From: Zestosphaera tikiterensis
GTDB taxonomy: Archaea; Thermoproteota; Thermoprotei_A; Sulfolobales; NBVN01
Assembly: GCA_003056265.1 (NCBI GenBank)
Contig: NBVN01000004.1
Span: forward strand, 120,001-152,000
Length of the DNA: 32,000 nucleotides
Reading direction: 5' to 3'
The notes beneath the pieces were generated by a model. It was not told the DNA's origin. It made no database searches and worked only from the letters and a program-made list of their open reading frames with translations. Both the position numbers and the translations under genes were made by a program. Below, one piece after another: positions 6,065 through 28,861 of the stretch (position 1 is the stretch's first letter; every line of letters begins with the position of its first letter).

Positions 6065-6115
6065 ATGATGAATGGTGTCCTATCATTGACTGGTGATTTA
6101 TGGACCACTAGCTGA
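6065..6115 (+). ncRNA. candidate C/D-box sRNA overlapping the 3' end of the convergent gene
   Basis: The layout is ATGATGA-(14 nt)-TTGA-(CTG)-GTGATTT-(12 nt ATGGACCACTAG)-CTGA. The C and D boxes are perfect and the D guide is exactly 12 nt. The C'/D' boxes are degenerate and the D' spacer is 14 rather than 12 nt. Confidence 0.35.
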
Positions 6116-8150
6116 TACCTTTACGGACGGTTTCTAACCCCGTATCGGTTTTGCTAATATAGGTCCCTCTCAGGAACTCATCTATCCCTTCATACGCTGG
6201 TTGCGTTCCTTCATTACTCACTTTAGTTTCCTTCTTCTTAGTTAAAGCGTGTAGTATTGAAGCTAGTGAGTCTTTCTTACGTGGTCTGCTTCGTGGATTT
6301 CCTAGAAGTTGAGTTACTAGGTTTTTCTCAACTAAAACTTCAGATATAGGACATACGTTAATACATACTCCGCAACCTTTGCATGTTTTGTCATTAACTT
6401 TAGGTTTGCCCTCACTTATAGTTATGGCCTTTTGAGGGCACCACGTTACGCAGTTTCCGCACTTAACGCAGGTAAACCATCTAACAACTAACTTAAGTAG
6501 AGTTACGGCGTCTTCGAAAGCGTTATGCGAGTAGACCTCAATGCTTTCCTTCTTAATTAATGCCTCACCGTATTGAAGCCTTAGCTTAACCTCATCTTCA
6601 TGAACCGCTATCGCCTTACCAACGACTTTCCATTGATCGACGACGCTCCTTAAGTTTATGTGGGGCTCCACCTTAACTATCACTCTATCGCTTAGCTTAT
6701 CTCCCGAAATTAAATCTACTTTGAATCCAGACCTTCTCACGTATTCCTCACGCCAGGTGAGGTCGTTCCTTAACCTCAACCATCCCTCAACCCTCTTCCT
6801 CCCTTGAGCTTGAGGATTATGCCATCTCCAAATGTGGTACTTAACGCAATGATCGCTTAAGCCCACTCTTCCACACCAGGTCTTGAGGAACTTCTCCCAC
6901 GCCATCCATAATTCAGGATGTTTTCTACTGATTTCATGGTATTCAGCTACGTTTGCCGCTGGGCATAGGTAACACCCAAGCCTTTCAAAGCCTTCATAGT
7001 AAAGCTTATTGACGGGTAGTTTTCTATCCATTATATAAGCCCATAAAGTTAACTGATCCCAGTCTTGAATAGGTGATATTGATAGAACCTCAGGCAACCA
7101 TTTATTCCTCCAAACACCTCCAGACCAAGACCTATCTATAGATTCGAAAGCTCTTTGCCCAACAACCGAGAGCACACCTTGCGGGTATAAACTCTTGAAA
7201 ACCTTAGCTATAGGAGCAAGCTTAACCACCTTACAACACCACCTATAGTCTTTAGCTGGAGGGCCAAACACTTCAACAGCTTCCCAAAAGCTTCTTTCAG
7301 GTTTAGCTATCAACAACTTAAGCCCGTACGTGGTAGCTACGTTCTCTACATTCTCTATAGTTTCAGGTAATTCCAACCCGGTATCGTTGAAAAGCATAGT
7401 AGGTTCTAAACCAGCCCTTAAAACCACGTCTAAAACAGCTAGTGAGTCCTTACCTCCGGAGTAGGAAACAACTAGAGGTAGTTTAGTCTTCTCGTACATG
7501 ATTGAAGCGTGTTTAACCGCTCTGGAAATTTTAGACCTGAACCATAAGTCGTTAGCTTTAATGAACTCTAAGAAGGGGGTCCTAACCTTAAACGGTTCTT
7601 GAAGACCCTCCTTAAATATGGACTGGATTCTAAACTTACCTTTCCTAACCACAGCTAAAGCTACAACATCCCCTGAAGAATTAAGCACTACTGCCTGTTC
7701 CCCCTCCCTCCCACCCTCACCAAGGACTTCTAAAGGTCTAACCTTACTTAATTTAAACCCCTTGACAAGGCCTTTCTCGTAAGCTACTACAGCGCTAAAC
7801 CTACTCAACCTCCACCTCCACTTCATCTCTATAGGATCGAAGTGAAGCCTCCCTACGACAGTACCGCCTACTATAACTTCCTTCATATCGTCTACATGCG
7901 GTATCTTATTAAGGTATGTAGTGCCTACGTCAAGCATTAAATCTTTAAGAAGCGATTCAGTTCCGAACTCGTTTACAATGCCTTCCCTAAAAAGTCTTAA
8001 ATCACCTTCAAACGCCGGCCTTAAATCCCCTGGCTCACCTATCCTTAACTCTAAGCCCTCACCGCCGCATCTCTGGCAGGTTCTCTGCCTTAAAGGCACG
8101 TTACAGTTAGGACACCAATACAGCCTTAACTTAATGCCCCACTCACGCAT
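6108..8150 (-). CDS. PAPS-reductase-family (PP-loop ATP pyrophosphatase) protein with N-terminal zinc ribbon and C-terminal 2x[4Fe-4S] ferredoxin domain
   Basis: The N-terminus has CPNC...CQRC. A PP-loop VVSYSGGKDS begins the PAPS-reductase-type core. Two ferredoxin motifs are present, CVKCGNCVTWCP and CKGCGVCINVCP, followed by a basic/hydrophilic tail. Confidence 0.8.
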   Translation of the reverse strand: MREWGIKLRLYWCPNCNVPLRQRTCQRCGGEGLELRIGEPGDLRPAFEGDLRLFREGIVNEFGTESLLKDLMLDVGTTYLNKIPHVDDMKEVIVGGTVVGRLHFDPIEMKWRWRLSRFSAVVAYEKGLVKGFKLSKVRPLEVLGEGGREGEQAVVLNSSGDVVALAVVRKGKFRIQSIFKEGLQEPFKVRTPFLEFIKANDLWFRSKISRAVKHASIMYEKTKLPLVVSYSGGKDSLAVLDVVLRAGLEPTMLFNDTGLELPETIENVENVATTYGLKLLIAKPERSFWEAVEVFGPPAKDYRWCCKVVKLAPIAKVFKSLYPQGVLSVVGQRAFESIDRSWSGGVWRNKWLPEVLSISPIQDWDQLTLWAYIMDRKLPVNKLYYEGFERLGCYLCPAANVAEYHEISRKHPELWMAWEKFLKTWCGRVGLSDHCVKYHIWRWHNPQAQGRKRVEGWLRLRNDLTWREEYVRRSGFKVDLISGDKLSDRVIVKVEPHINLRSVVDQWKVVGKAIAVHEDEVKLRLQYGEALIKKESIEVYSHNAFEDAVTLLKLVVRWFTCVKCGNCVTWCPQKAITISEGKPKVNDKTCKGCGVCINVCPISEVLVEKNLVTQLLGNPRSRPRKKDSLASILHALTKKKETKVSNEGTQPAYEGIDEFLRGTYISKTDTGLETVRKGIS

Positions 8151-8198: not shown

Positions 8199-8208
8199 TT
8201 TTAAATAT
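8199..8208 (+). promoter_or_regulatory. TATA-like box for the membrane-protein cluster
   Basis: TTTTAAATAT ends 25 nt upstream of the ATG at 8233. This favours 8233 over the GTG at 8209 as the start, with a leaderless-type layout. Confidence 0.35.
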
Positions 8209-8232
8209 GTGGGTAGCTGTTTGGGTGTGTCG

Positions 8233-8508
8233 ATGGATTTAGTGGATTTCATACGTGGGTTAACAACACAGATAATTGCTATCGTGTGGGTGGTTTTCTT
8301 AATTACGTGGGTGGTGGGTTGGGCTCTTAGAGGTTCCCCAATACCGATACATAGGATTAAAAGGTTGGGACAGTCCCTCATAGAGGATTCGGTAATAGCT
8401 GCTTTCTGGCTTGCTTTAGGGTCAACGGTCTTCGCCTTAATAACTTTCATAGCGAGCAATATATCGCAGCCGTTCCCACCCCCACCAACACCGACGCCCC
8501 AGCCTTGA
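8233..8508 (+). CDS. small 2-TM membrane protein, VirB2/TrbC/CedA1-like topology, Pro/Thr-rich C-tail
   Basis: The sequence is MDLVDFIRGL + TM1 (TTQIIAIVWVVFLITWVVGWAL) + basic loop (RGSPIPIHRIKRLGQSLIED) + TM2 (SVIAAFWLALGSTVFALITFIA) + SNISQPFPPPPTPTPQP. The track ORF opens at the GTG at 8209. The pilin-like call rests on topology only. Confidence 0.6.
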   Translation: MDLVDFIRGLTTQIIAIVWVVFLITWVVGWALRGSPIPIHRIKRLGQSLIEDSVIAAFWLALGSTVFALITFIASNISQPFPPPPTPTPQP

Positions 8509-8518
8509 GGGTTAAGAC

Positions 8519-9865
8519 TTGGATTACCTAGTTATTGCTTATAACCTAGCACTACTTAGCTATTCGTTAGGGGTTTTACTGCTTGCTTCACCGATACCGT
8601 CAAAAAGCGTTAAAAGCTGGGGAAGTAAGTTAATAAGCGATTCTTTAATGACTGCCATCCTAATCTCGTCAATAACGCTTATTCAGGGAATCGGCGCCTA
8701 CATACTTAAAGTTTTAAACGTTAGTTGGGAGGAGTTCTTCACGTGGTTATATGTTAGGACTTTAACGTTAGTTAGTTTTTACACAGTCTTAACTCAGGTA
8801 GCGTCATACCTCAAGCATGTTGAGCTATCCTTCCTAACAAGCCCTATAGGGTATGTAGTCTCCTTAATATCGTTATCTTTCACTTCCTTAAGGACTATCT
8901 ACGTATTATCAAACGTTATATACGCGTTTAAAGACAAGTTAGCGGTTTTGGGGGTGCTTCTCTACTCACTTCCGTTTAGGGTAGGTAAGGGTGTTGGTTC
9001 GTTCTTCATCGCAGCGTCTATAGTGATGTTCGTAGGCTTTCCGTTAATGCCGCACTTCATACAATCATTTGAAGCCAGCTATCCTTCAAAAACGCTCTTA
9101 GAAAGCAAGACCATAACTGTTAATGTAGTGGATGTTAACGGTAGAGGGCTTCCGTATCCTATAGTTAAGTTTTACTTAGTTAGAGAACTTAACAACCCTA
9201 TAGGTGTGGTTTTAGGGGATGTCGAAGGTAAGTTAATAATAGGTGACGGTCTCGACGTATTACCTAAGGAGAACTTCACACTTCAAGTTCAAATTGAATA
9301 CCTAGGCATGAGTTTCACGCCGGTTCCTGACTACATAACTAGTGAATTCGAGATAAATACTCTATCAATTCCTCAACTACTTATGCTGCCCGGCTTAGCT
9401 CTCTTAAGGAATGGAGACGTAGAGTTTGTTGATGTCCTATACGACTACGGTTCAGCCGACATAACCGTAAAGGCGTTTACTAACTCTAAAGTAACTTTAG
9501 TTAAATACTTAAAAACAAACGTTACTTACGTGGAAGTTAACGGCAGGGAAACGTCATGTATATGGAGTGATGAGACGTGGTATGGTATATCGATAAGCAC
9601 TTGCTCCATTGAATTAAACGGCTCCGACAGCTACACATCTCTGAAGCTAATATATACGCCGTCGCAACCTTCAGCACCTAACGTAGGTGAGGTTAGATTA
9701 ATCTATAAGGAATCGATTATAGATGATTTAACTAACCTTATAAACGTCGCCGTAACTTACATCTATACATACATCTTCCTTCCCGGTGTTTACGTAGTGA
9801 TACTTACTTCCATGACGCACGCGCTTTCTAAGGTCTTAGGAGGTAGTAGATTAAGGCTGATGTGA
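8519..9865 (+). CDS. polytopic membrane protein (about 5-6 N-terminal TMs) with large extracytoplasmic beta-rich domain and C-terminal TM anchor; possible CedA/VirB6-like
   Basis: A TTG start lies 10 nt after the upstream stop. The first ~190 aa are hydrophobic helices. Residues ~195-400 are beta-strand-like (TITVNVVDVNGRGLPYPIVKFYLV... resembles a carboxypeptidase-regulatory/Ig-like fold). The final TM is VTYIYTYIFLPGVYVVILTSM. Confidence 0.6.
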   Translation: MDYLVIAYNLALLSYSLGVLLLASPIPSKSVKSWGSKLISDSLMTAILISSITLIQGIGAYILKVLNVSWEEFFTWLYVRTLTLVSFYTVLTQVASYLKHVELSFLTSPIGYVVSLISLSFTSLRTIYVLSNVIYAFKDKLAVLGVLLYSLPFRVGKGVGSFFIAASIVMFVGFPLMPHFIQSFEASYPSKTLLESKTITVNVVDVNGRGLPYPIVKFYLVRELNNPIGVVLGDVEGKLIIGDGLDVLPKENFTLQVQIEYLGMSFTPVPDYITSEFEINTLSIPQLLMLPGLALLRNGDVEFVDVLYDYGSADITVKAFTNSKVTLVKYLKTNVTYVEVNGRETSCIWSDETWYGISISTCSIELNGSDSYTSLKLIYTPSQPSAPNVGEVRLIYKESIIDDLTNLINVAVTYIYTYIFLPGVYVVILTSMTHALSKVLGGSRLRLM

Positions 9866-9866
9866 T

Positions 9867-10016
9867 TTGAAGCGCTATATTACACCCCTTCTGATGTTTT
9901 TAGCTTTAGCGACGGTTTTACTTAACGACAGTGATTTCACACTTAAGGTCTTAAGCATCATCATATTTCTAATCTACTTGCTGGCTGAACACTACCGTAG
10001 AAGAGCATTAACTTAA
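9867..10016 (+). CDS. unannotated 49-aa 2-TM membrane peptide (CedA2-like position)
   Basis: A TTG start lies 1 nt after the stop of the 448-aa gene. Manual translation gives MKRYITPLLMFLALATVLLNDSDFTLKVLSIIIFLIYLLAEHYRRRALT*. There are two hydrophobic segments and a basic C-terminus. The ORF is below the track's length cutoff. An internal ATG at 9894 is an alternative start. Confidence 0.45.
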   Translation: MKRYITPLLMFLALATVLLNDSDFTLKVLSIIIFLIYLLAEHYRRRALT

Positions 10017-14154: not shown

Positions 14155-14306
14155 ATACGTTTTACAACTGAAAGCCTTGCTTCTTTAGGGTGGGGATGGA
14201 TAGGTTAAACTTATAAAGCTTAAGCTTACATAACACTTAGGTTGGGAATTCTATGGCTGGCCAACGAAAGCAGTGGATGTCCCTGGTGGGGGGAAACCCC
14301 ACCGCA

Positions 14307-15677
14307 ATGCCAGCCATAGAGGTTCCCAACCTCCTCAAAACAAAGAAAGAAAGTGTTAGAACTATTAGACTCAGGCTTCTACCGACAAAACAGCAAGACG
14401 AACGCCTGCGTAAAATCGCTGACATATGTTCCAAGCTTTGGAATGAGGTGAACTACGTTAGGAGGAAAGCATTCTTTGAAAAGAAGAGGGTTAATATAGA
14501 AGAAACCTATAAGGAATACTATGAAAGATATAAGAAACTTGTTGGGAGCGCCACAACACAGCAAATACTAAATAAGAACAACGAAGCATGGAATTCATTC
14601 TTCAAACTCCTAAAGCTTAAGAAAGAGAGTAAACTACCGCCCTCCATTAAGAAACCCACACCACCAGGATACTGGAAGGATAAAATCTTAGGTAAGAGAA
14701 TTAAAAGAATCATCATCAGAAGCGATAGGTATTACGTAGAGCAAGTCAACAGTGATGAAGGATACATCACCCTCAAAGACTTTAGTGTGAAGGTTAAGTA
14801 TGTTGGTAGGATTAAATGGTCTGGTAAGCAGGGCAGGCTTGAAATAAAGTATGAATTTAACAGGTGGTTCGCATACATACCAATAGAAGTTGGTGTGATG
14901 CCTTCGAAGAACAACCCGAAGGGTTACATTAGGGGTGGATGTGATATAATTCAGCGGGAGAAGCTCAGAGGGGAGGAGGTAGCGTTCATTGATATGGGTT
15001 TAAACAACTTGTTTGCTGTGGTGGTGACGAGTGGTGATGCTATTCTGGTGAAGGGTGGTGTTGTTAAGTTTGAGTATTACTGGTGGAAGTCCGAGAAGAG
15101 AAACGCGCAATCCACTAGAGATTTAATGAGGAATAACGGTCTTAAGGTTTGGAGGAGATTCCACCGCAGGTATTTAAGGGCGTTATTTAAGAGTGGTGAG
15201 AGGTTAAGACACCTCTACAGAACCGCCGTTAGATTCTTAGCCAAGGAGTTGCATGAGAGGAGCGTTAAGAATGTGTATTTAGGATATCCCTACATGATCA
15301 CTCAGGATAACGGTAACGAATACAACACAAACATTTGGTGGTTTAGAAAATTAACACAATGGTTATATGATGTACTAAAGGAATATGGTATAGAGTTACT
15401 CATAGTGTTTGAGGATAATACTAGTAGGGAGTGTTCAATATGCCACGTTATTCACGAAGGCGCTAGAGTATATAGGGGTTTATACATATGTGAAAGAACT
15501 GAAAAGAGAATAAACGCCGATTTAAACGCTGCTATAAACATAGCCTATAAAGTTAGCTACGATATTAAAAACATTAAAAAGATAGAGAGTTTTGTCGTAA
15601 CTCATAACGGTGTCAAGACCGTAACCCCCTTAAGGAGGGGTATCGCCCAAGACCCAGCAGTGAAACCCCGCCTTTAA
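14307..15677 (+). CDS. tnpB: TnpB (OrfB) RNA-guided endonuclease-family protein
   Basis: The N-terminus VRTIRLRLLPTKQQ is the typical first beta-strand plus 'PT.eQ'. RuvC-I is AFIDMGLNN. The zinc-finger region is ECSICH...YIC. RuvC-III is ADLNAAINI. The track ORF opens at 14253, but that ATG and the next 18 codons lie inside the LE stem-loop. Met19 (14307, MPAIEV...) gives a more typical N-terminal length. Confidence 0.85.
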   Translation: MPAIEVPNLLKTKKESVRTIRLRLLPTKQQDERLRKIADICSKLWNEVNYVRRKAFFEKKRVNIEETYKEYYERYKKLVGSATTQQILNKNNEAWNSFFKLLKLKKESKLPPSIKKPTPPGYWKDKILGKRIKRIIIRSDRYYVEQVNSDEGYITLKDFSVKVKYVGRIKWSGKQGRLEIKYEFNRWFAYIPIEVGVMPSKNNPKGYIRGGCDIIQREKLRGEEVAFIDMGLNNLFAVVVTSGDAILVKGGVVKFEYYWWKSEKRNAQSTRDLMRNNGLKVWRRFHRRYLRALFKSGERLRHLYRTAVRFLAKELHERSVKNVYLGYPYMITQDNGNEYNTNIWWFRKLTQWLYDVLKEYGIELLIVFEDNTSRECSICHVIHEGARVYRGLYICERTEKRINADLNAAINIAYKVSYDIKNIKKIESFVVTHNGVKTVTPLRRGIAQDPAVKPRL

Positions 15678-15697: not shown

Positions 15698-16252
15698 CAG
15701 ATCCTACCTAACGTTAGAGCTACGTCAGTTCAGCAAACGCTAAATACTGTAAACGCTGTAGTCACGCAGTTAAACCTACTGCTTGTAAGCATCGCCAGCA
15801 CCTCATTCGTTGCCGCTGGTTTAGGCACTTTTAACATAATGACTGTCTCCATACTGGAGAGAGTTAGGGAGATAGGTATTCTTAAAGCGTTAGGAGCTAG
15901 GGATAGGACGGTCCTAGCCATATATTTGATTCAAGGGCTTTTAATAGGTGTTTTAGGCGGTGTAGCCGGCGTTGGTGTGGGGTTCGTAATGAGTTCGTTC
16001 GTAAGCGGGTTGTTTGTAGGGAGGATGGTAGGTGGTGTAAGAATAGGTGGGCCACCGGCGCCAGTACCAACATCTCAAAACGTTCAAAGCGTTTCCACAA
16101 CGTCATCAATAACCTTCACCATACCCTATATAAACCCATACTACGTAGCTTTAGCAATGGCTTTATCCGTAACGGTTTCATTAATAGCTTCAGCATATCC
16201 CTCAGCTAAAGCCGCGAGGATGAACCCCGTAGAAGCATTAAGATATGAGTAA
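15698..16252 (+). pseudogene. 5'-truncated FtsX/MacB-type ABC permease (C-terminal TM2-TM4 part only)
   Basis: The frame is open from directly after the IS right end: QILPNVRATSVQQTLNTVNAVVTQLNLLLVSIASTSFVAAGLGTFNIMTVSILERVREIGILKALGA.... ERxREIGxLKAxGA is the FtsX hallmark. The N-terminal TM1 and the ~200-aa extracytoplasmic domain are missing. The track lists only 15839-16252. Confidence 0.7.
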
Positions 16253-16403: not shown

Positions 16404-16481
<78 letters not shown>

Positions 16482-24997: not shown

Positions 24998-25405
24998 GTG
25001 TTGGAGAAGGTAATGAATGAGTACTATGCTGACTTTTTAAGGAGGAGGGCAAAGGCTTTTCTCGAGAGTGCTCGTGCAGACTTTAGTAGAGGTGACCATG
25101 ACTTAGTACTCTTTCACGTTGAGCAATTCCTACAACTATACCTTAAGCATCTCATATATAAGAAGGTAGGTGATTACCCGAAAACTAATTCTTTGACTCA
25201 CCTTATGAAGCTCATTATGAAAATTTACAGTGATGAGAAGCTCAGCGAGTTTTATGAGAAGTACTTAGAGGTTCTCTACCTTCTTGAGGAGGCTTACATA
25301 AGTTCGAGATACTTACCAAGGCAATATGACAGAGAAATCGCGGAGAGGATTCTAAAGTTTGCTGAGAAAACGTTGGAGGTGTTGGAATGGCTGGAGAAAC
25401 ACTGA
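24998..25405 (+). CDS. HEPN-domain protein (toxin partner of a HEPN-MNT module)
   Basis: The protein is all-helical and 130-135 aa. The motifs ...YPKTNSLTHL... and ...EEAYISSRY.P are typical of PF05168-type HEPN proteins. The track start is GTG at 24998. The ATG at 25013, preceded by GGAGAAGG, is a plausible alternative. Confidence 0.75.
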   Translation: MLEKVMNEYYADFLRRRAKAFLESARADFSRGDHDLVLFHVEQFLQLYLKHLIYKKVGDYPKTNSLTHLMKLIMKIYSDEKLSEFYEKYLEVLYLLEEAYISSRYLPRQYDREIAERILKFAEKTLEVLEWLEKH

Positions 25406-25740
25406 TGGAGTTAGAGCTTGAGCTTCGGGAGACTTTGAAAAAGTACTATGAGAACCTCACAACCTACGTAAAGGAAATAAAGGATGTTGTTAAAAAGTAT
25501 GATCCTTCAGCTAAGGCCCTGATATTCGGTAGCGTCGTTAAAGGTTATGCTAGACCTGATAGCGATGTAGACGTACTTGTTATAACGGAAATCGCTAGGA
25601 ACGTAAGCAGTAGGTTGATGCTAAGAGTGGAAATAGCGAGGAGAGTAGGGGTTTACACACCATTCGAGATTCACATAGTTACGTGGGAAGAGTACAGAAG
25701 TTGGTACGAGAAGTTCATAGACAAGTACGAAGAGGTTTAA
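25387..25740 (+). CDS. minimal nucleotidyltransferase (MNT, Pol-beta superfamily; antitoxin partner)
   Basis: The G-S-x9-11-D-x-D motif is present as FGSVVKGYARPDSDVDVLV. The protein is 117 aa. It overlaps the HEPN gene by 19 nt. Confidence 0.85.
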   Translation: MAGETLMELELELRETLKKYYENLTTYVKEIKDVVKKYDPSAKALIFGSVVKGYARPDSDVDVLVITEIARNVSSRLMLRVEIARRVGVYTPFEIHIVTWEEYRSWYEKFIDKYEEV

Positions 25741-27301: not shown

Positions 27302-27583
27302 ATGCTTAAGAAGTTCTGTAGGGTTGGTGGAGCCGTAACGATGGATTATATAGCTAATTCCTTAGGGGTTAGCTTAGATGAGGTGCAGACGTTTATATCT
27401 GTGCTCTTAGCTGAAGGACTTATCGATGAAGTGGTTGTTGAGGATTTAAACGCATGTGTTAAATGCCCGTTAAGGAGTTTCTGTTTAGGATGTAACTATG
27501 CTCAGGGTTTAAGCCCCTCTAAACTAAAACACTATAGACTTACTGAGAAAGGCTTAAAAATCTGCGATTCTTTAAGGGATTAA
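27302..27583 (+). CDS. small winged-helix protein with C-x2-C-x5-C-x2-C cluster (FeoC-like architecture)
   Basis: MDYIANSLGVSLDEVQTFISVLLAEGLI is HTH-like. It is followed by CVKCPLRSFCLGC. No in-frame start lies upstream, because a stop occurs at 27278. The FeoC analogy is by pattern only. Confidence 0.45.
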   Translation: MLKKFCRVGGAVTMDYIANSLGVSLDEVQTFISVLLAEGLIDEVVVEDLNACVKCPLRSFCLGCNYAQGLSPSKLKHYRLTEKGLKICDSLRD

Positions 27584-28861
27584 AACCTCCTCACCGTTGC
27601 TCGGTAGGGATACAGAGTCTAAACCTATGATCTCCTCTATCCTCCGCTTAAACTCTAGACCTACGTCTTCGTTTGTATGCACTATGATCACGTGTCCCAA
27701 CCCCTTAACGTTCTTAGCTATTTCTAAAAGCCCATCCACGCCCGCGTGACTTGAAAAATCAAACCATTGAACCCTAGCCCTAACCCTACCAACGTCTTCT
27801 AAGGGGGTTCCCTCCTCCAGCAACGCCCTCCCAGGGGTTTTAGGTGCTTGATATGAGACGAGGAAGACGGCGTTTTTAGGGTTGTCTGAAAGCCTCTTTA
27901 AGTAGTATTGCGCTGGACCTCCTTTAAGCATGCCGGCTGAAGCAACCACTACGGAACCCTCACTTTGAACTATCCTCCTTCTCTGAGAAGGTTTAGTCAC
28001 GGCTTTAAATTCCTTCATAGACTTGACTAAGACGTCATATTTATTTATGAATTCAGGGTAGCTAACTAACACGTCATATATCTGCCTTATCATGCCGTCG
28101 TAGAATACGTCCCCACCAAACCTTTCGTAAAGAAGCCCTAGGATTTCTTGAGACCTACCTAAGCTGAAAGCAGGTATTAAAACGTTTCCTCCGGAGTCCG
28201 TAACCTCCTTAACGGAGTCTATGAACTCCTTCTCAACGACTTCCCTAGGGGGGTGTTTAACGTTGCCGTAAGTGCCTTCAATCACCAACACCTCAGCTTC
28301 AACTCCTTCGTAATTAGCTTTAGATACGAGCCTCGTGTCTATAGTGTTTACATCGCCGGTGTATAATATCTTACGACCGTTGACCTCCACGTGAATCATC
28401 GCACTACCTGGTATGTGACCTGCGTTCAACAACTTAACTGTGAACTCACCCACGCAGCATTCAACGTTGTAGGAAGCCTCTATCGAGTTATCAAGCATGC
28501 TTAACATATCCAACTCCTCGAAAGGTAGGTAGTAACCTGAAATCTTAATGAAGTCTTTAAGCATCACCTCACTCAACGCTTTAGTCATGGGGGTCATAAC
28601 CGCCGGCAACTTAACACTTGAGTAAAGCATTGGAGCACTACCTACGTGATCTAAATGCGCGTGTGATATGGCTAAGCCAGCAACCTCAGAAGGTTTTAAA
28701 TGCTCCGGGAATTGAGGCTCATCATTCTCGTTAAAGTTAACTCCATAATCAAGAAGTAGGAACCTACCTTCACCGTATCTTAACGCTACAGCAGCCCTAC
28801 CTACTTCCCTACCACCACCTAAAACTTTAACCTTCAACACTTCACCTATCCTCTCACTCAA
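27572..28861 (-). CDS. beta-CASP metallo-beta-lactamase RNase (aCPSF2-like, COG1236)
   Basis: The MBL motif is SHAHLDHVG. The 429-aa length and beta-CASP-type C-terminal half (...FSSHAG...) fit the aCPSF2 group, which lacks N-terminal KH domains. Confidence 0.8.
   Translation of the reverse strand: MSERIGEVLKVKVLGGGREVGRAAVALRYGEGRFLLLDYGVNFNENDEPQFPEHLKPSEVAGLAISHAHLDHVGSAPMLYSSVKLPAVMTPMTKALSEVMLKDFIKISGYYLPFEELDMLSMLDNSIEASYNVECCVGEFTVKLLNAGHIPGSAMIHVEVNGRKILYTGDVNTIDTRLVSKANYEGVEAEVLVIEGTYGNVKHPPREVVEKEFIDSVKEVTDSGGNVLIPAFSLGRSQEILGLLYERFGGDVFYDGMIRQIYDVLVSYPEFINKYDVLVKSMKEFKAVTKPSQRRRIVQSEGSVVVASAGMLKGGPAQYYLKRLSDNPKNAVFLVSYQAPKTPGRALLEEGTPLEDVGRVRARVQWFDFSSHAGVDGLLEIAKNVKGLGHVIIVHTNEDVGLEFKRRIEEIIGLDSVSLPSNGEEVLIP

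What the first reader, a model, noticed from the sequence alone, without database searches (positions are those of the whole stretch)
8199..10016. Three-gene membrane cluster resembling the CedA1/CedA/CedA2 module of the crenarchaeal DNA-import (Ced) system, with an unusually large extracellular domain
The three genes are tightly coupled, with gaps of 10 nt and 1 nt. The first encodes a ~91-aa protein with two long hydrophobic helices joined by a short basic loop and a Pro/Thr-rich tail. That is the VirB2/TrbC-type pilin topology reported for CedA1 and TedC. The second encodes a 448-aa polytopic protein in the VirB6/CedA-like position. The third is a 49-aa two-helix peptide in the CedA2-like position. 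In Sulfolobus acidocaldarius the Ced membrane genes (cedA, cedA1, cedA2) are clustered while the ATPase cedB is elsewhere, so the absence of an ATPase here fits. What differs is the ~200-aa beta-rich extracytoplasmic insert plus extra C-terminal TM in the large protein (TITVNVVDVNGRGLPYPIVKFYLV...). This could be a receptor, cell-contact or cell-wall-spanning module not described for CedA. The assignment is from topology and gene order only.
Basis: inference. Interest (0 to 1): 0.65.

Follow-up and report, generated by a model that had tools for sequence, protein, structure and literature searches.

The report
Ced DNA-import membrane genes, long-form CedA
These three genes are the membrane part (pilin CedA1, channel protein CedA and a small partner) of the known archaeal Ced DNA-import system, and the large outside domain that looked unusual is the normal form of CedA in most lineages outside the Sulfolobus family.

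Summary
The three tightly packed genes exist as described: 8233-8508, 8519-9865 and 9867-10016, with gaps of 10 and 1 nt.

- **ORF1 is a CedA1 pilin.** It scores 118 bits against NCBIfam NF041797 (cut-off 100) and matches the solved Aeropyrum pernix Ced pilin 8DFU at E 1.4e-24.
- **ORF2 is a CedA.** It matches NF041796 at E 2.6e-46 and aligns end to end with the 452-aa gene next to A. pernix cedA1.
- **ORF3 is a conserved 2-helix peptide in the CedA2 position.** It does not match the CedA2 profile.

The ~200-aa insert is real. It models as two beta-sandwich domains (AlphaFold pLDDT 88), the first carboxypeptidase-regulatory-like. It is not unusual: about 120 of the 150 best CedA-family cluster representatives are 425-525 aa. 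These include Aeropyrum, Thermogladius, Pyrodictiaceae, Hyperthermus, Ignisphaera and Fervidicoccus. Named short (~260 aa) forms are all Sulfolobaceae. The "extra" C-terminal helix is the canonical last CedA helix, so the domain sits in the last outer loop.

No CedB ATPase lies in the window. It is adjacent in A. pernix and Thermogladius and unlinked in the window's closest relatives.

Verdict: an ordinary new member of a known system. One point is under-described: papers call CedA a "6-7 TM" protein, and NCBI names the long forms "hypothetical".

The parts
8199..8207 (+). TATA-like box TTTTAAATA, 26 nt upstream of the cedA1 ATG. Probable promoter of a nearly leaderless cedA1-cedA-ORF3 transcript.
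   Evidence: Read from the sequence. Its function as a promoter is inferred, not tested.
8233..8508 (+). cedA1: a 91-aa VirB2-like Ced pilin. It has two hydrophobic helices, a basic loop and a proline-rich C-terminal tail.
   Evidence: NCBIfam NF041797 at 118 bits against a cut-off of 100. Matches 8dfu_B, the A. pernix pilin, at E 1.4e-24 over residues 2-78. Its 29 homologues carry PF27251:CedA1, and some are named 'DNA import protein CedA1'.
8519..9865 (+). cedA, long form (448 aa): a VirB6-like polytopic membrane protein.
   Evidence: NF041796 Ced_CedA at E 2.6e-46, 158 bits, below the 330 cut-off. Aligns end to end with the A. pernix 452-aa protein (E 1e-27) and the Thermogladius 454-aa protein (E 3e-32). 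AlphaFold2 mean pLDDT is 83.
8519..8716 (+). Pilin-like N-terminal helical hairpin of CedA (residues 1-66), homologous to CedA1.
   Evidence: ORF2 residues 5-51 match the CedA1 model (29.3 bits). The family profile hits pilin 8dfu_B at E 4e-5. The same relation is reported in PMC9905601.
9104..9373 (+). Ectodomain D1 (residues 196-285): a carboxypeptidase-regulatory-like (prealbumin-like) beta-sandwich with the conserved motif IIGDGLDxLP.
   Evidence: AlphaFold2 model of the insert alone has pLDDT 88.4 and pTM 0.84. Single-domain Foldseek matches are 3e8v (TMt 0.72) and the SusC NTE domain 9hfj (TMt 0.64). NCBI names relatives 'carboxypeptidase-like regulatory domain-containing protein'. Invariant residues are listed.
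9374..9670 (+). Ectodomain D2 (residues 286-384): a second beta-sandwich, the fastest-evolving part. It has an invariant Trp354 and a usually paired Cys347/Cys362.
   Evidence: Mean pairwise identity is 27% against 56% for the TM core. Foldseek gives only generic tandem Ig-like or CnaB-pilin matches.
9707..9835 (+). C-terminal transmembrane helix (residues 397-439) followed by a basic tail. It is the equivalent of the last helix of canonical CedA.
   Evidence: Aligns with residues 177-249 of the 256-aa Sulfuracidifex CedA. The FLPGVY and LGG motifs are invariant.
9867..10016 (+). 49-aa two-helix membrane peptide in the CedA2 position. Homology to CedA2 is not shown.
   Evidence: A 51-72-aa ORF of the same layout follows cedA within a few nt in L001-L011, L013-L016 and L019, and the family aligns. 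There is no hit to NF041798 Ced_CedA2. A family HMM scores a Sulfuracidifex CedA2 candidate at 11.7 bits, beaten by 1 of 2000 shuffles.

Best explanation
The cluster is the chromosomal cedA1-cedA-small-gene operon of the Ced (crenarchaeal exchange of DNA) system of an uncultured Desulfurococcales-type archaeon.

Shown here:
- ORF1 is an orthologue of the A. pernix CedA1 pilin.
- ORF2 is a CedA-family protein with the same architecture as the gene next to A. pernix cedA1.
- ORF3 is a conserved two-helix peptide that always follows cedA in this clade.

Inferred from the published Ced/T4SS model (PMC9905601, PMC11823120): CedA, the VirB6 counterpart, oligomerises in the membrane as the platform and channel. 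Its N-terminal pilin-like hairpin may seed the CedA1 filament. CedA1 polymerises with lipid into a VirB2-like pilus that conducts single-stranded DNA into the cell. An unlinked CedB (and CedD) ATPase supplies the energy.

Inferred for the insert: the ~200-aa domain is looped out of the last extracellular loop, between TM6 and the canonical last TM. It places two glycosylated beta-sandwich domains in the space between membrane and S-layer. Most likely they form a collar or stalk around the pilus base, standing in for the periplasmic T4SS parts (VirB5, VirB8, VirB10) that archaea lack. This long form is the usual CedA outside Sulfolobaceae, not a peculiarity of this locus.
For: Identity of the genes:
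- CedA1 passes its curated model, 118 bits against a cut-off of 100, and matches 8DFU at E 1.4e-24.
- CedA matches NF041796 at E 2.6e-46. It scores higher (158 bits) than A. pernix CedA itself (109 bits).

Architecture in reference genomes:
- The A. pernix K1 locus is APE_0220a (87 aa), then a 452-aa protein, then a 461-aa CedB-like ATPase.
- The Thermogladius locus is CedA1 (87 aa), a 454-aa protein, a 52-aa ORF and a 545-aa HerA/VirB4-like ATPase.

How common the long form is:
- The family HMM search gave 226 hits. Among the 160 family sequences binned by length (the listed representatives plus the close homologues), about 120 are 425-525 aa and about 25 are 225-300 aa.
- Almost every long form has a 200-250-aa segment between the TM core and the last TM.
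- Named short forms are all Sulfolobaceae.
- Named long forms are Desulfurococcales, Pyrodictiaceae, Hyperthermus, Ignisphaera and Fervidicoccus.

Outside location of the insert:
- It has 2-5 N-glycosylation sequons against 0-2 in the rest of the protein.
- It is net acidic (28 D+E against 16 K+R).
- The loops flanking it on the cytoplasmic side and the C-terminal tail are basic.
- A Cys pair occurs only in the insert.
- It has a beta-sandwich fold.

Chromosomal housekeeping context, syntenic with L019: PolB1, proteasome beta subunit and endonuclease V.
Against: - ORF2 is below the curated CedA cut-off (158 against 330 bits).
- No CedB or CedD gene lies in the 32-kb window, so a complete system is not shown for this genome.
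- ORF3 has no detectable CedA2 profile match.
- Neither a profile search of PDB sequences nor Foldseek (top 50) recovered VirB6. The VirB6 link therefore rests on the literature.
- The collar or stalk role of the ectodomain is pure inference. No multimer model, expression data or localisation data were available.
Confidence: 0.88

Rival explanations
1. The ectodomain is a recognition or docking module. It would bind the partner cell, its S-layer glycans or an incoming pilus tip. This would give the species specificity that Ups pili provide in Sulfolobales.
For: - The insert evolves much faster than the rest of the protein: 34% mean identity (D2 27%) against 55-56% for the TM parts. Distant family members keep the architecture but lose detectable D1/D2 similarity.
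- CedA1 is far more conserved than CedA.
- Named short forms occur only in Sulfolobaceae, the lineage that has Ups pili (PMC9905601).
- The folds are those of adhesins and pilins, such as BcpA and EbpB.
Against: - Two beta-sandwich domains tethered at both ends to the membrane can reach only a few nm, which is probably below the S-layer. Direct cell-cell contact is therefore unlikely (inference).
- Fast divergence is equally expected for any exposed, glycosylated spacer.
- The fold matches are generic, with E no better than 1e-4 and TM-scores of 0.2-0.3 over two domains.
Confidence: 0.2
2. ORF3 is a lineage-specific small subunit unrelated to Sulfolobales CedA2. It would be a positional analogue rather than a homologue.
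For: - ORF3 gives no hit to NF041798 Ced_CedA2 at E<=1.
- Identity within the Desulfurococcales set itself is only 12-24%.
- A. pernix has no such gene between cedA and cedB; the gap is 20 nt.
- PMC9905601 states that CedA2 is not conserved between species.
Against: - It has the same position, size (about 50 aa) and layout (Met, basic residue, TM, short polar loop, TM) as the Sulfuracidifex ORF downstream of cedA. That ORF itself scores only 21.5 bits on the CedA2 model.
- The Desulfurococcales HMM ranks that ORF above all 1297 unrelated small ORFs and 1999 of 2000 shuffles.
Confidence: 0.4
3. The genes belong to a mobile conjugative element (an archaeal T4SS on an integrated plasmid) and not to the domesticated chromosomal Ced system.
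For: - Ced derives from conjugation machinery (PMC9905601).
- A TnpB gene lies 4 kb downstream, at 14253-15677.
Against: - The neighbours are core genes: PolB1, a CinA-like gene, archaetidylinositol-phosphate synthase, a NOG1-type GTPase, proteasome beta subunit, endonuclease V and riboflavin kinase.
- The same order is kept in a relative whose CedA is only 45% identical (L019) and in the Desulfurococcales MAG loci.
- No integrase, relaxase or ATPase flanks the trio, and GC content shows no break.
Confidence: 0.02

Closest known systems
Aeropyrum pernix K1 Ced locus: CedA1 APE_0220a (pilus structure PDB 8DFU), the adjacent 452-aa CedA and CedB
   Same: - The CedA1 pilin is homologous (E 1.4e-24).
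- The cedA1 then cedA order is the same.
- CedA has the same long architecture: TM core, ~200-aa beta insert and last TM, alignable end to end.
- Both loci are chromosomal.
   Different: - CedA is only 26% identical.
- A. pernix has cedB directly downstream and no small ORF3-type gene.
- The window CedA1 carries a poly-proline tail (QPFPPPPTPTPQP) that is shared with Desulfurococcaceae-type relatives and lies beyond the segment aligned with the A. pernix pilin.
Sulfolobales Ced membrane module: S. acidocaldarius saci_0569 cedA1, saci_0568 cedA and saci_0567 cedA2, with cedB saci_0748 elsewhere
   Same: - Three adjacent membrane genes in the order pilin, channel protein, ~50-aa two-helix peptide.
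- The ATPase is unlinked (PMC11823120; Sulfuracidifex locus L017).
- The TM core of CedA is 32% identical over 200 residues.
   Different: - Sulfolobaceae CedA is ~256-263 aa with only a short loop where the window protein has two beta-sandwich domains.
- Sulfolobales also have Ups pili, and Ced pili have never been seen in them (PMC11823120).
- CedA2 homology of ORF3 is not demonstrable.
Bacterial T4SS VirB2 pilin and VirB6 platform; Thermoproteales Ted system (TedC/TedA)
   Same: A two-helix pilin plus a polytopic membrane protein whose N-terminus resembles the pilin. The homology is published, by HHpred and structure comparison (PMC9905601 and PMC11868833).
   Different: - No direct VirB6 or TedA match was recovered here.
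- Ced imports rather than exports DNA.
- No VirB3, VirB5, VirB8 or VirB10 counterparts are known in archaea.
- The published descriptions read here give TedA as a seven-TM protein and mention no comparable ectodomain.

Membership tests
CedA1 (Ced pilin, VirB2-like; NCBIfam NF041797, Pfam PF27251) | Scores above the curated equivalog cut-off of the CedA1 profile | tested here: met
   118 bits against a cut-off of 100, E 1.4e-34, covering profile positions 1-75 of 75.
CedA1 (Ced pilin, VirB2-like; NCBIfam NF041797, Pfam PF27251) | Sequence homology to the experimentally solved Ced pilin (A. pernix, PDB 8DFU) | tested here: met
   phmmer E 1.4e-24, query residues 2-78 against chain residues 3-79.
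CedA1 (Ced pilin, VirB2-like; NCBIfam NF041797, Pfam PF27251) | Assembles with lipid into an extracellular filament | not testable with these tools
   Needs pilus preparation with cryo-EM or mass spectrometry.
CedA (VirB6-like channel protein; NCBIfam NF041796) | Significant match to the CedA profile over the TM core | tested here: met
   E 2.6e-46. Residues 2-201 cover profile positions 6-207 of 259, and a second stretch covers the C-terminal helix. CedA scores better than the paralogue CedE (158 against 104 bits).
CedA (VirB6-like channel protein; NCBIfam NF041796) | Reaches the curated equivalog cut-off (330 bits) | tested here: not met
   158 bits. The cut-off is met by a Sulfolobaceae CedA (370 bits). 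It is also missed by A. pernix CedA (109 bits) and Thermogladius CedA (125 bits), so the model is tuned to the short form.
CedA (VirB6-like channel protein; NCBIfam NF041796) | Encoded next to cedA1, with the same architecture as CedA of a species with a proven Ced pilus | tested here: met
   The gap to cedA1 is 10 nt. The A. pernix locus is and the end-to-end alignment (E 1e-27).
CedA (VirB6-like channel protein; NCBIfam NF041796) | N-terminal hairpin homologous to the pilin | tested here: met
   ORF2 residues 5-51 hit the CedA1 model. The family profile hits 8dfu_B at E 4e-5.
CedA (VirB6-like channel protein; NCBIfam NF041796) | Detectable similarity to bacterial VirB6 | tested here: not met
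   There is no VirB6 chain in the profile search of PDB sequences at E<=10 or in the Foldseek top 50. The published link needed HHpred through TedA (PMC9905601).
CedA2 (NCBIfam NF041798) | Match to the CedA2 profile | tested here: not met
   ORF3 gives no NF041798 hit at E<=1. The model exists and gives 21.5 bits for a Sulfuracidifex candidate.
CedA2 (NCBIfam NF041798) | A ~50-aa protein with two TM helices encoded directly downstream of cedA | tested here: met
   ORF3 is 49 aa and starts 1 nt after cedA. The same arrangement occurs in 17 related loci, and the layout is shared with the Sulfuracidifex ORF.
CedA2 (NCBIfam NF041798) | Sequence homology to a Sulfolobaceae CedA2 | tested here: inconclusive
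   An HMM of 11 Desulfurococcales ORF3 homologues scores the Sulfuracidifex candidate at 11.7 bits. One of 2000 shuffles scored higher.
Complete Ced system | A CedB (VirB4/HerA-like, membrane-anchored) ATPase in the same genome | not testable with these tools
   None was found among the window ORFs or by tblastn with three CedB proteins. Only 32 kb of the genome is available. CedB is adjacent in L015, L016 and L018, and is not within 10 kb in L001-L014.
Complete Ced system | Mediates DNA import; induced by DNA damage in Sulfolobales | not testable with these tools
   Needs genetics or transcriptomics. No ANTTTC-type hexamer occurs in the 82-nt upstream region. That motif is recalled from the Sulfolobales Orc1-2 literature and is not established for this lineage.
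Carboxypeptidase-regulatory-like (prealbumin-like) beta-sandwich (Pfam PF13620), for insert domain D1 | Profile or fold match | tested here: inconclusive
   Pfam gives no hit for the window protein and hits 1 of 13 relatives at E 0.032. At fold level, 3e8v gives TMt 0.72 with rmsd 3.0 A, and 9hfj gives TMt 0.64. NCBI names some relatives this way.

The most novel reading that the evidence does not exclude
The two-domain ectodomain of long-form CedA may be the missing extracellular part of the archaeal conjugation-derived machine. It would form a ring or stalk that guides the CedA1 pilus through the space under the S-layer, taking the place of VirB5, VirB8 and VirB10. Alternatively it could be a docking site that sets partner specificity.

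On this reading, its absence from Sulfolobaceae would be a secondary loss. That loss would be linked to the gain of Ups pili and to the reduction of the Ced pilus to a pseudopilus. The best-studied Ced model (Sulfolobus) would then be the atypical, reduced form of the system.
Probability: 0.25. Interest if true: 0.55.

Novelty: new member of a known kind. Interest (0 to 1): 0.3.

Why it matters
For this locus the result is mainly an annotation: a chromosomal Ced pilin and channel module in an uncultured Desulfurococcales-type archaeon.

The wider point came out of the comparison. Most CedA proteins carry a ~200-250-aa, fast-evolving, probably glycosylated beta-sandwich ectodomain. This includes the CedA of A. 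pernix, whose Ced pilus has been solved. The papers I could read (PMC9905601, PMC11823120, PMC11868833) describe CedA only as a 6-7-TM channel. NCBI's CedA model names only the short Sulfolobaceae form and leaves the long forms as "hypothetical" or "carboxypeptidase-like regulatory domain-containing protein".

This ectodomain is an obvious candidate for the extracellular architecture of the archaeal DNA-import machine. It deserves structural work, and the profile cut-offs could be revised.

Tried and rejected
- **Pfam-A scan of the three proteins.** No useful hit. The precomputed family PF27251:CedA1 seen gave no hit in this scan, so it may be missing from the local copy.
- **VirB6 link.** Foldseek of the whole model and a profile search of PDB sequences were meant to recover VirB6. 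Neither did. Only beta-sandwich proteins and the CedA1 pilin were returned.
- **Foldseek of the insert alone against PDB and viral models.** Only generic Ig-like, CnaB-pilin, tail-fibre and prealbumin-like matches. No specific function follows.
- **Gain or loss of the insert.** A neighbour-joining tree of the TM core with midpoint root was inconclusive. The root state was ambiguous, at least 4 changes were needed, and the short forms fell into several small clades that may include fragments or CedE-type paralogues.
- **ORF3 against CedA2 by a custom HMM.** Marginal.
- **The sigma-70 promoter and terminator scan.** It is a bacterial model and irrelevant to an archaeon, so I ignored it.
- **The original Ced paper (van Wolferen 2016, PNAS).** It is not held in the library. 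I could not check whether its figures note the size of the Desulfurococcales CedA.
- **Mobile-element reading.** Rejected on synteny.
- **dN/dS of the insert.** Not attempted. The nearest homologues with DNA at hand are either 99% identical or at most 45% identical.
Full report
**1. Observation**

The three ORFs are present as described:
- 8209/8233..8508, 99 aa from GTG or 91 aa from ATG;
- 8519..9865, 448 aa with a TTG start;
- 9867..10016, 49 aa with a TTG start.

The gaps are 10 nt and 1 nt. ATG 8233 lies 26 nt downstream and matches the start of every homologue, so the pilin is 91 aa. A GAGGG motif (8507-8511) precedes ORF2.

The ORF1 sequence shows two hydrophobic helices, the basic loop RGSPIPIHRIKRLGQ and a proline-rich tail. 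The same three genes, in the same order and with the same tight spacing, occur in 15 GTDB genome loci and in two further genomes. None of them is a chance ORF.

**2. Identity of ORF1 and ORF2**

ORF1 scores 118 bits on NCBIfam NF041797 "DNA import protein CedA1", above the curated cut-off of 100. It aligns with the chain of PDB 8DFU, the Aeropyrum pernix Ced pilus, at E 1.4e-24 over 77 residues.

ORF2 matches NF041796 "DNA import protein CedA" at E 2.6e-46. This is better than its match to the paralogue CedE, although its 158 bits are below the 330-bit cut-off.

The cut-off is not a fair test for this lineage. A Sulfolobaceae CedA reaches 370 bits. The A. pernix and Thermogladius proteins encoded next to cedA1 reach only 109 and 125 bits.

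The N-terminus of ORF2 also matches the CedA1 model, and the family profile hits the 8DFU pilin at E 4e-5. This reproduces the pilin-like hairpin of CedA noted by Beltran et al. (PMC9905601).

**3. The large extracellular domain**

AlphaFold2 on a 13-sequence alignment gives mean pLDDT 83. The model has helices at 2-184, strands only at 198-380, and a final long helix at 397-439. The insert modelled alone gives pLDDT 88.4 and pTM 0.84, with two beta-sandwich domains.

Foldseek finds only generic relatives:
- tandem Ig-like or CnaB pilins (BcpA, EbpB), teneurin, PD-L1 and SlaB over both domains, with E around 1e-4;
- for the first domain alone, prealbumin-like or carboxypeptidase-regulatory-like modules, namely 3e8v (TMt 0.72) and the SusC NTE domain 9hfj (TMt 0.64).

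NCBI names some relatives "carboxypeptidase-like regulatory domain-containing protein".

Several features support an outside location:
- there are 2-5 N-glycosylation sequons in the insert against 0-2 elsewhere;
- the insert is net acidic, while the C-terminal tail and the loop at residues 29-41 are basic;
- cysteines are almost confined to the insert.

This topology is inferred, not measured.

**4. The insert is not unusual, and the last helix is not extra**

A canonical 256-aa CedA (Sulfuracidifex, L017) aligns with ORF2 residues 2-201 and again with 372-447. The C-terminal helix is therefore the normal last helix, and the beta domains are looped out of the last outer loop.

The gene next to A. 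pernix cedA1 (APE_0220a) encodes 452 aa and aligns end to end with ORF2. The Thermogladius sp. 4427co equivalent is 454 aa.

An exhaustive HMM search of 1.84 billion cluster representatives gave 226 hits. Among the 160 family sequences binned by length (the listed representatives plus the close homologues), about 120 are 425-525 aa and about 25 are 225-300 aa. Nearly all long ones have the conserved TM core, then 200-250 residues, then the last helix.

This list is biased towards long forms, because the query profile was built from long forms and only the best 150 are shown.

Named short forms are all Sulfolobaceae: Saccharolobus, Sulfolobus, Stygiolobus and Ca. Aramenus. Named long forms are Desulfurococcales, Pyrodictiaceae, Hyperthermus, Ignisphaera and Fervidicoccus.

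The insert diverges faster than the core. Mean identity is 34% for the insert (27% for the second domain) against 55-56% for the TM parts.

**5. ORF3**

A 51-72-aa ORF with the same layout follows cedA in every related locus that extends far enough. The layout is Met, a basic residue, TM1, a short polar loop, TM2 and a charged tail. A. pernix lacks it.

ORF3 gives no hit to the NCBIfam CedA2 model. An HMM of the Desulfurococcales set scores a Sulfuracidifex CedA2 candidate at 11.7 bits, beaten by 1 of 2000 shuffles. That candidate itself reaches only 21.5 bits on the CedA2 model.

ORF3 is a real, conserved small membrane partner in the CedA2 position. Homology to CedA2 is undecided.

**6. ATPase and context**

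No window ORF of 100 aa or more matches the CedB or CedD profiles. tblastn with three CedB proteins finds nothing in the window or within 10 kb of the trio in L001-L014. cedB directly follows the membrane genes in A. pernix, Thermogladius and L015.

In the window's clade the ATPase is therefore unlinked, as in S. acidocaldarius (saci_0567-0569 against saci_0748; PMC11823120), or it is absent. This cannot be decided from 32 kb.

The neighbours are core genes: PolB1, a CinA-like gene, archaetidylinositol-phosphate synthase, a PAPS-reductase-like Fe-S protein, a NOG1-type GTPase, proteasome beta subunit, endonuclease V and riboflavin kinase. The order is kept in a relative whose CedA is only 45% identical (L019). 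This excludes a mobile element.

**7. Mechanism**

The shown steps are the identities above. The mechanism follows the published model (PMC9905601, PMC11823120):
- CedA forms the VirB6-like membrane platform;
- CedA1 forms the lipid-containing VirB2-like pilus through which single-stranded DNA is imported;
- CedB and CedD supply the energy.

My inference for the ectodomain is a collar or stalk around the pilus base, in the space under the S-layer. It would replace the periplasmic T4SS parts that archaea lack.

The main rival is a recognition or docking role. Fast divergence of the insert and the restriction of named short forms to the Ups-bearing Sulfolobaceae favour it. The short reach of a doubly tethered two-domain module counts against it.

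**8. Comparison and novelty**

The locus is a new member of the known Ced system, closest to the A. pernix type. The one less ordinary outcome concerns the family, not this locus. The papers available to me describe CedA as a 6-7-TM protein without mentioning an ectodomain, and the annotation pipeline does not recognise long forms as CedA. The original 2016 paper could not be read, so prior description there cannot be excluded.

**9. Verdict**

The Ced module is right. "Unusual domain" and "extra TM" are wrong. CedA2 is supported by position only.
- Interest is 0.3.

Noticed in passing
window 6108-8150 (-): A 680-aa PAPS-reductase-like (DndC-like ATP pyrophosphatase fold) protein with a C-terminal 2x[4Fe-4S] ferredoxin domain and an N-terminal zinc ribbon. 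It is of the PRK13795 'hypothetical protein' type (447 bits). It is transcribed divergently from cedA1. The same neighbour sits next to cedA1 in Thermogladius (L016) and L019, and its antisense traces appear in L001-L012. It is absent from that position in A. pernix. This is probably plain synteny, but the pairing is conserved.
   Followed up: partly
window 14253-15677 (+), 15839-16252 (+), 16404-16481 (+): A TnpB-family RNA-guided endonuclease gene (474 aa; NF040570 at 118.5 bits against a cut-off of 100). It is followed by a 137-aa ORF that matches only the C-terminal part of FtsX/LolC/MacB-type ABC permeases, which looks like a truncated gene. A tRNA-Arg(CCT) comes next. This may be an IS200/IS605-type insertion that disrupted a permease gene. 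No omega-RNA or element ends were looked for.
   Followed up: no
window 8233-8508 versus 8519-9865; homologues P0014/P0002 and P0015/P0010: The pilin is far more conserved than the channel protein. CedA1 is 92% and 77% identical, while CedA is 77% and 38% identical.
   Followed up: partly
window 8470-8508 (C-terminus of ORF1): The poly-proline tail QPFPPPPTPTPQP occurs in CedA1 of this clade, with the consensus YQPLPPPPxP in L001-L013 and L016. It lies beyond the 77 residues aligned with the A. pernix pilin. If the termini face outward as in VirB2-type pili, this tail would decorate the pilus surface and could be O-glycosylated.
   Followed up: no
L015 1533-2510 (-) and 11634-13520 (+): In the most distant related locus (a Thermoproteota MAG), a 628-aa CedB-like ATPase follows the trio directly (NF041017 at 264 bits). 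A second VirB4/HerA-like ORF, 27% identical over 330 aa, lies about 8 kb upstream on the other strand. It may be a CedD counterpart.
   Followed up: no
window 27572-28861 (-): A 429-aa beta-CASP/MBL ribonuclease that matches only positions 174-627 of the aCPSF1 model. It therefore lacks the N-terminal KH domains and is an aCPSF2-like short form.
   Followed up: no
window 24998-25740 (+): Two overlapping small ORFs. The second (117 aa) resembles an MntA-type nucleotidyltransferase antitoxin (33.5 bits, below the cut-off of 60). The first (135 aa) has no family hit. This may be a toxin-antitoxin pair.
   Followed up: no
NCBIfam models NF041796 (CedA) and NF041017 (CedB), tested on L016 and L018: The curated cut-offs exclude the Desulfurococcales proteins. 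A. pernix CedA scores 109 bits against a cut-off of 330. A. pernix CedB scores 46 bits and Thermogladius CedB 79 bits against a cut-off of 700. This explains why these Ced components are annotated as hypothetical outside Sulfolobaceae.
   Followed up: yes
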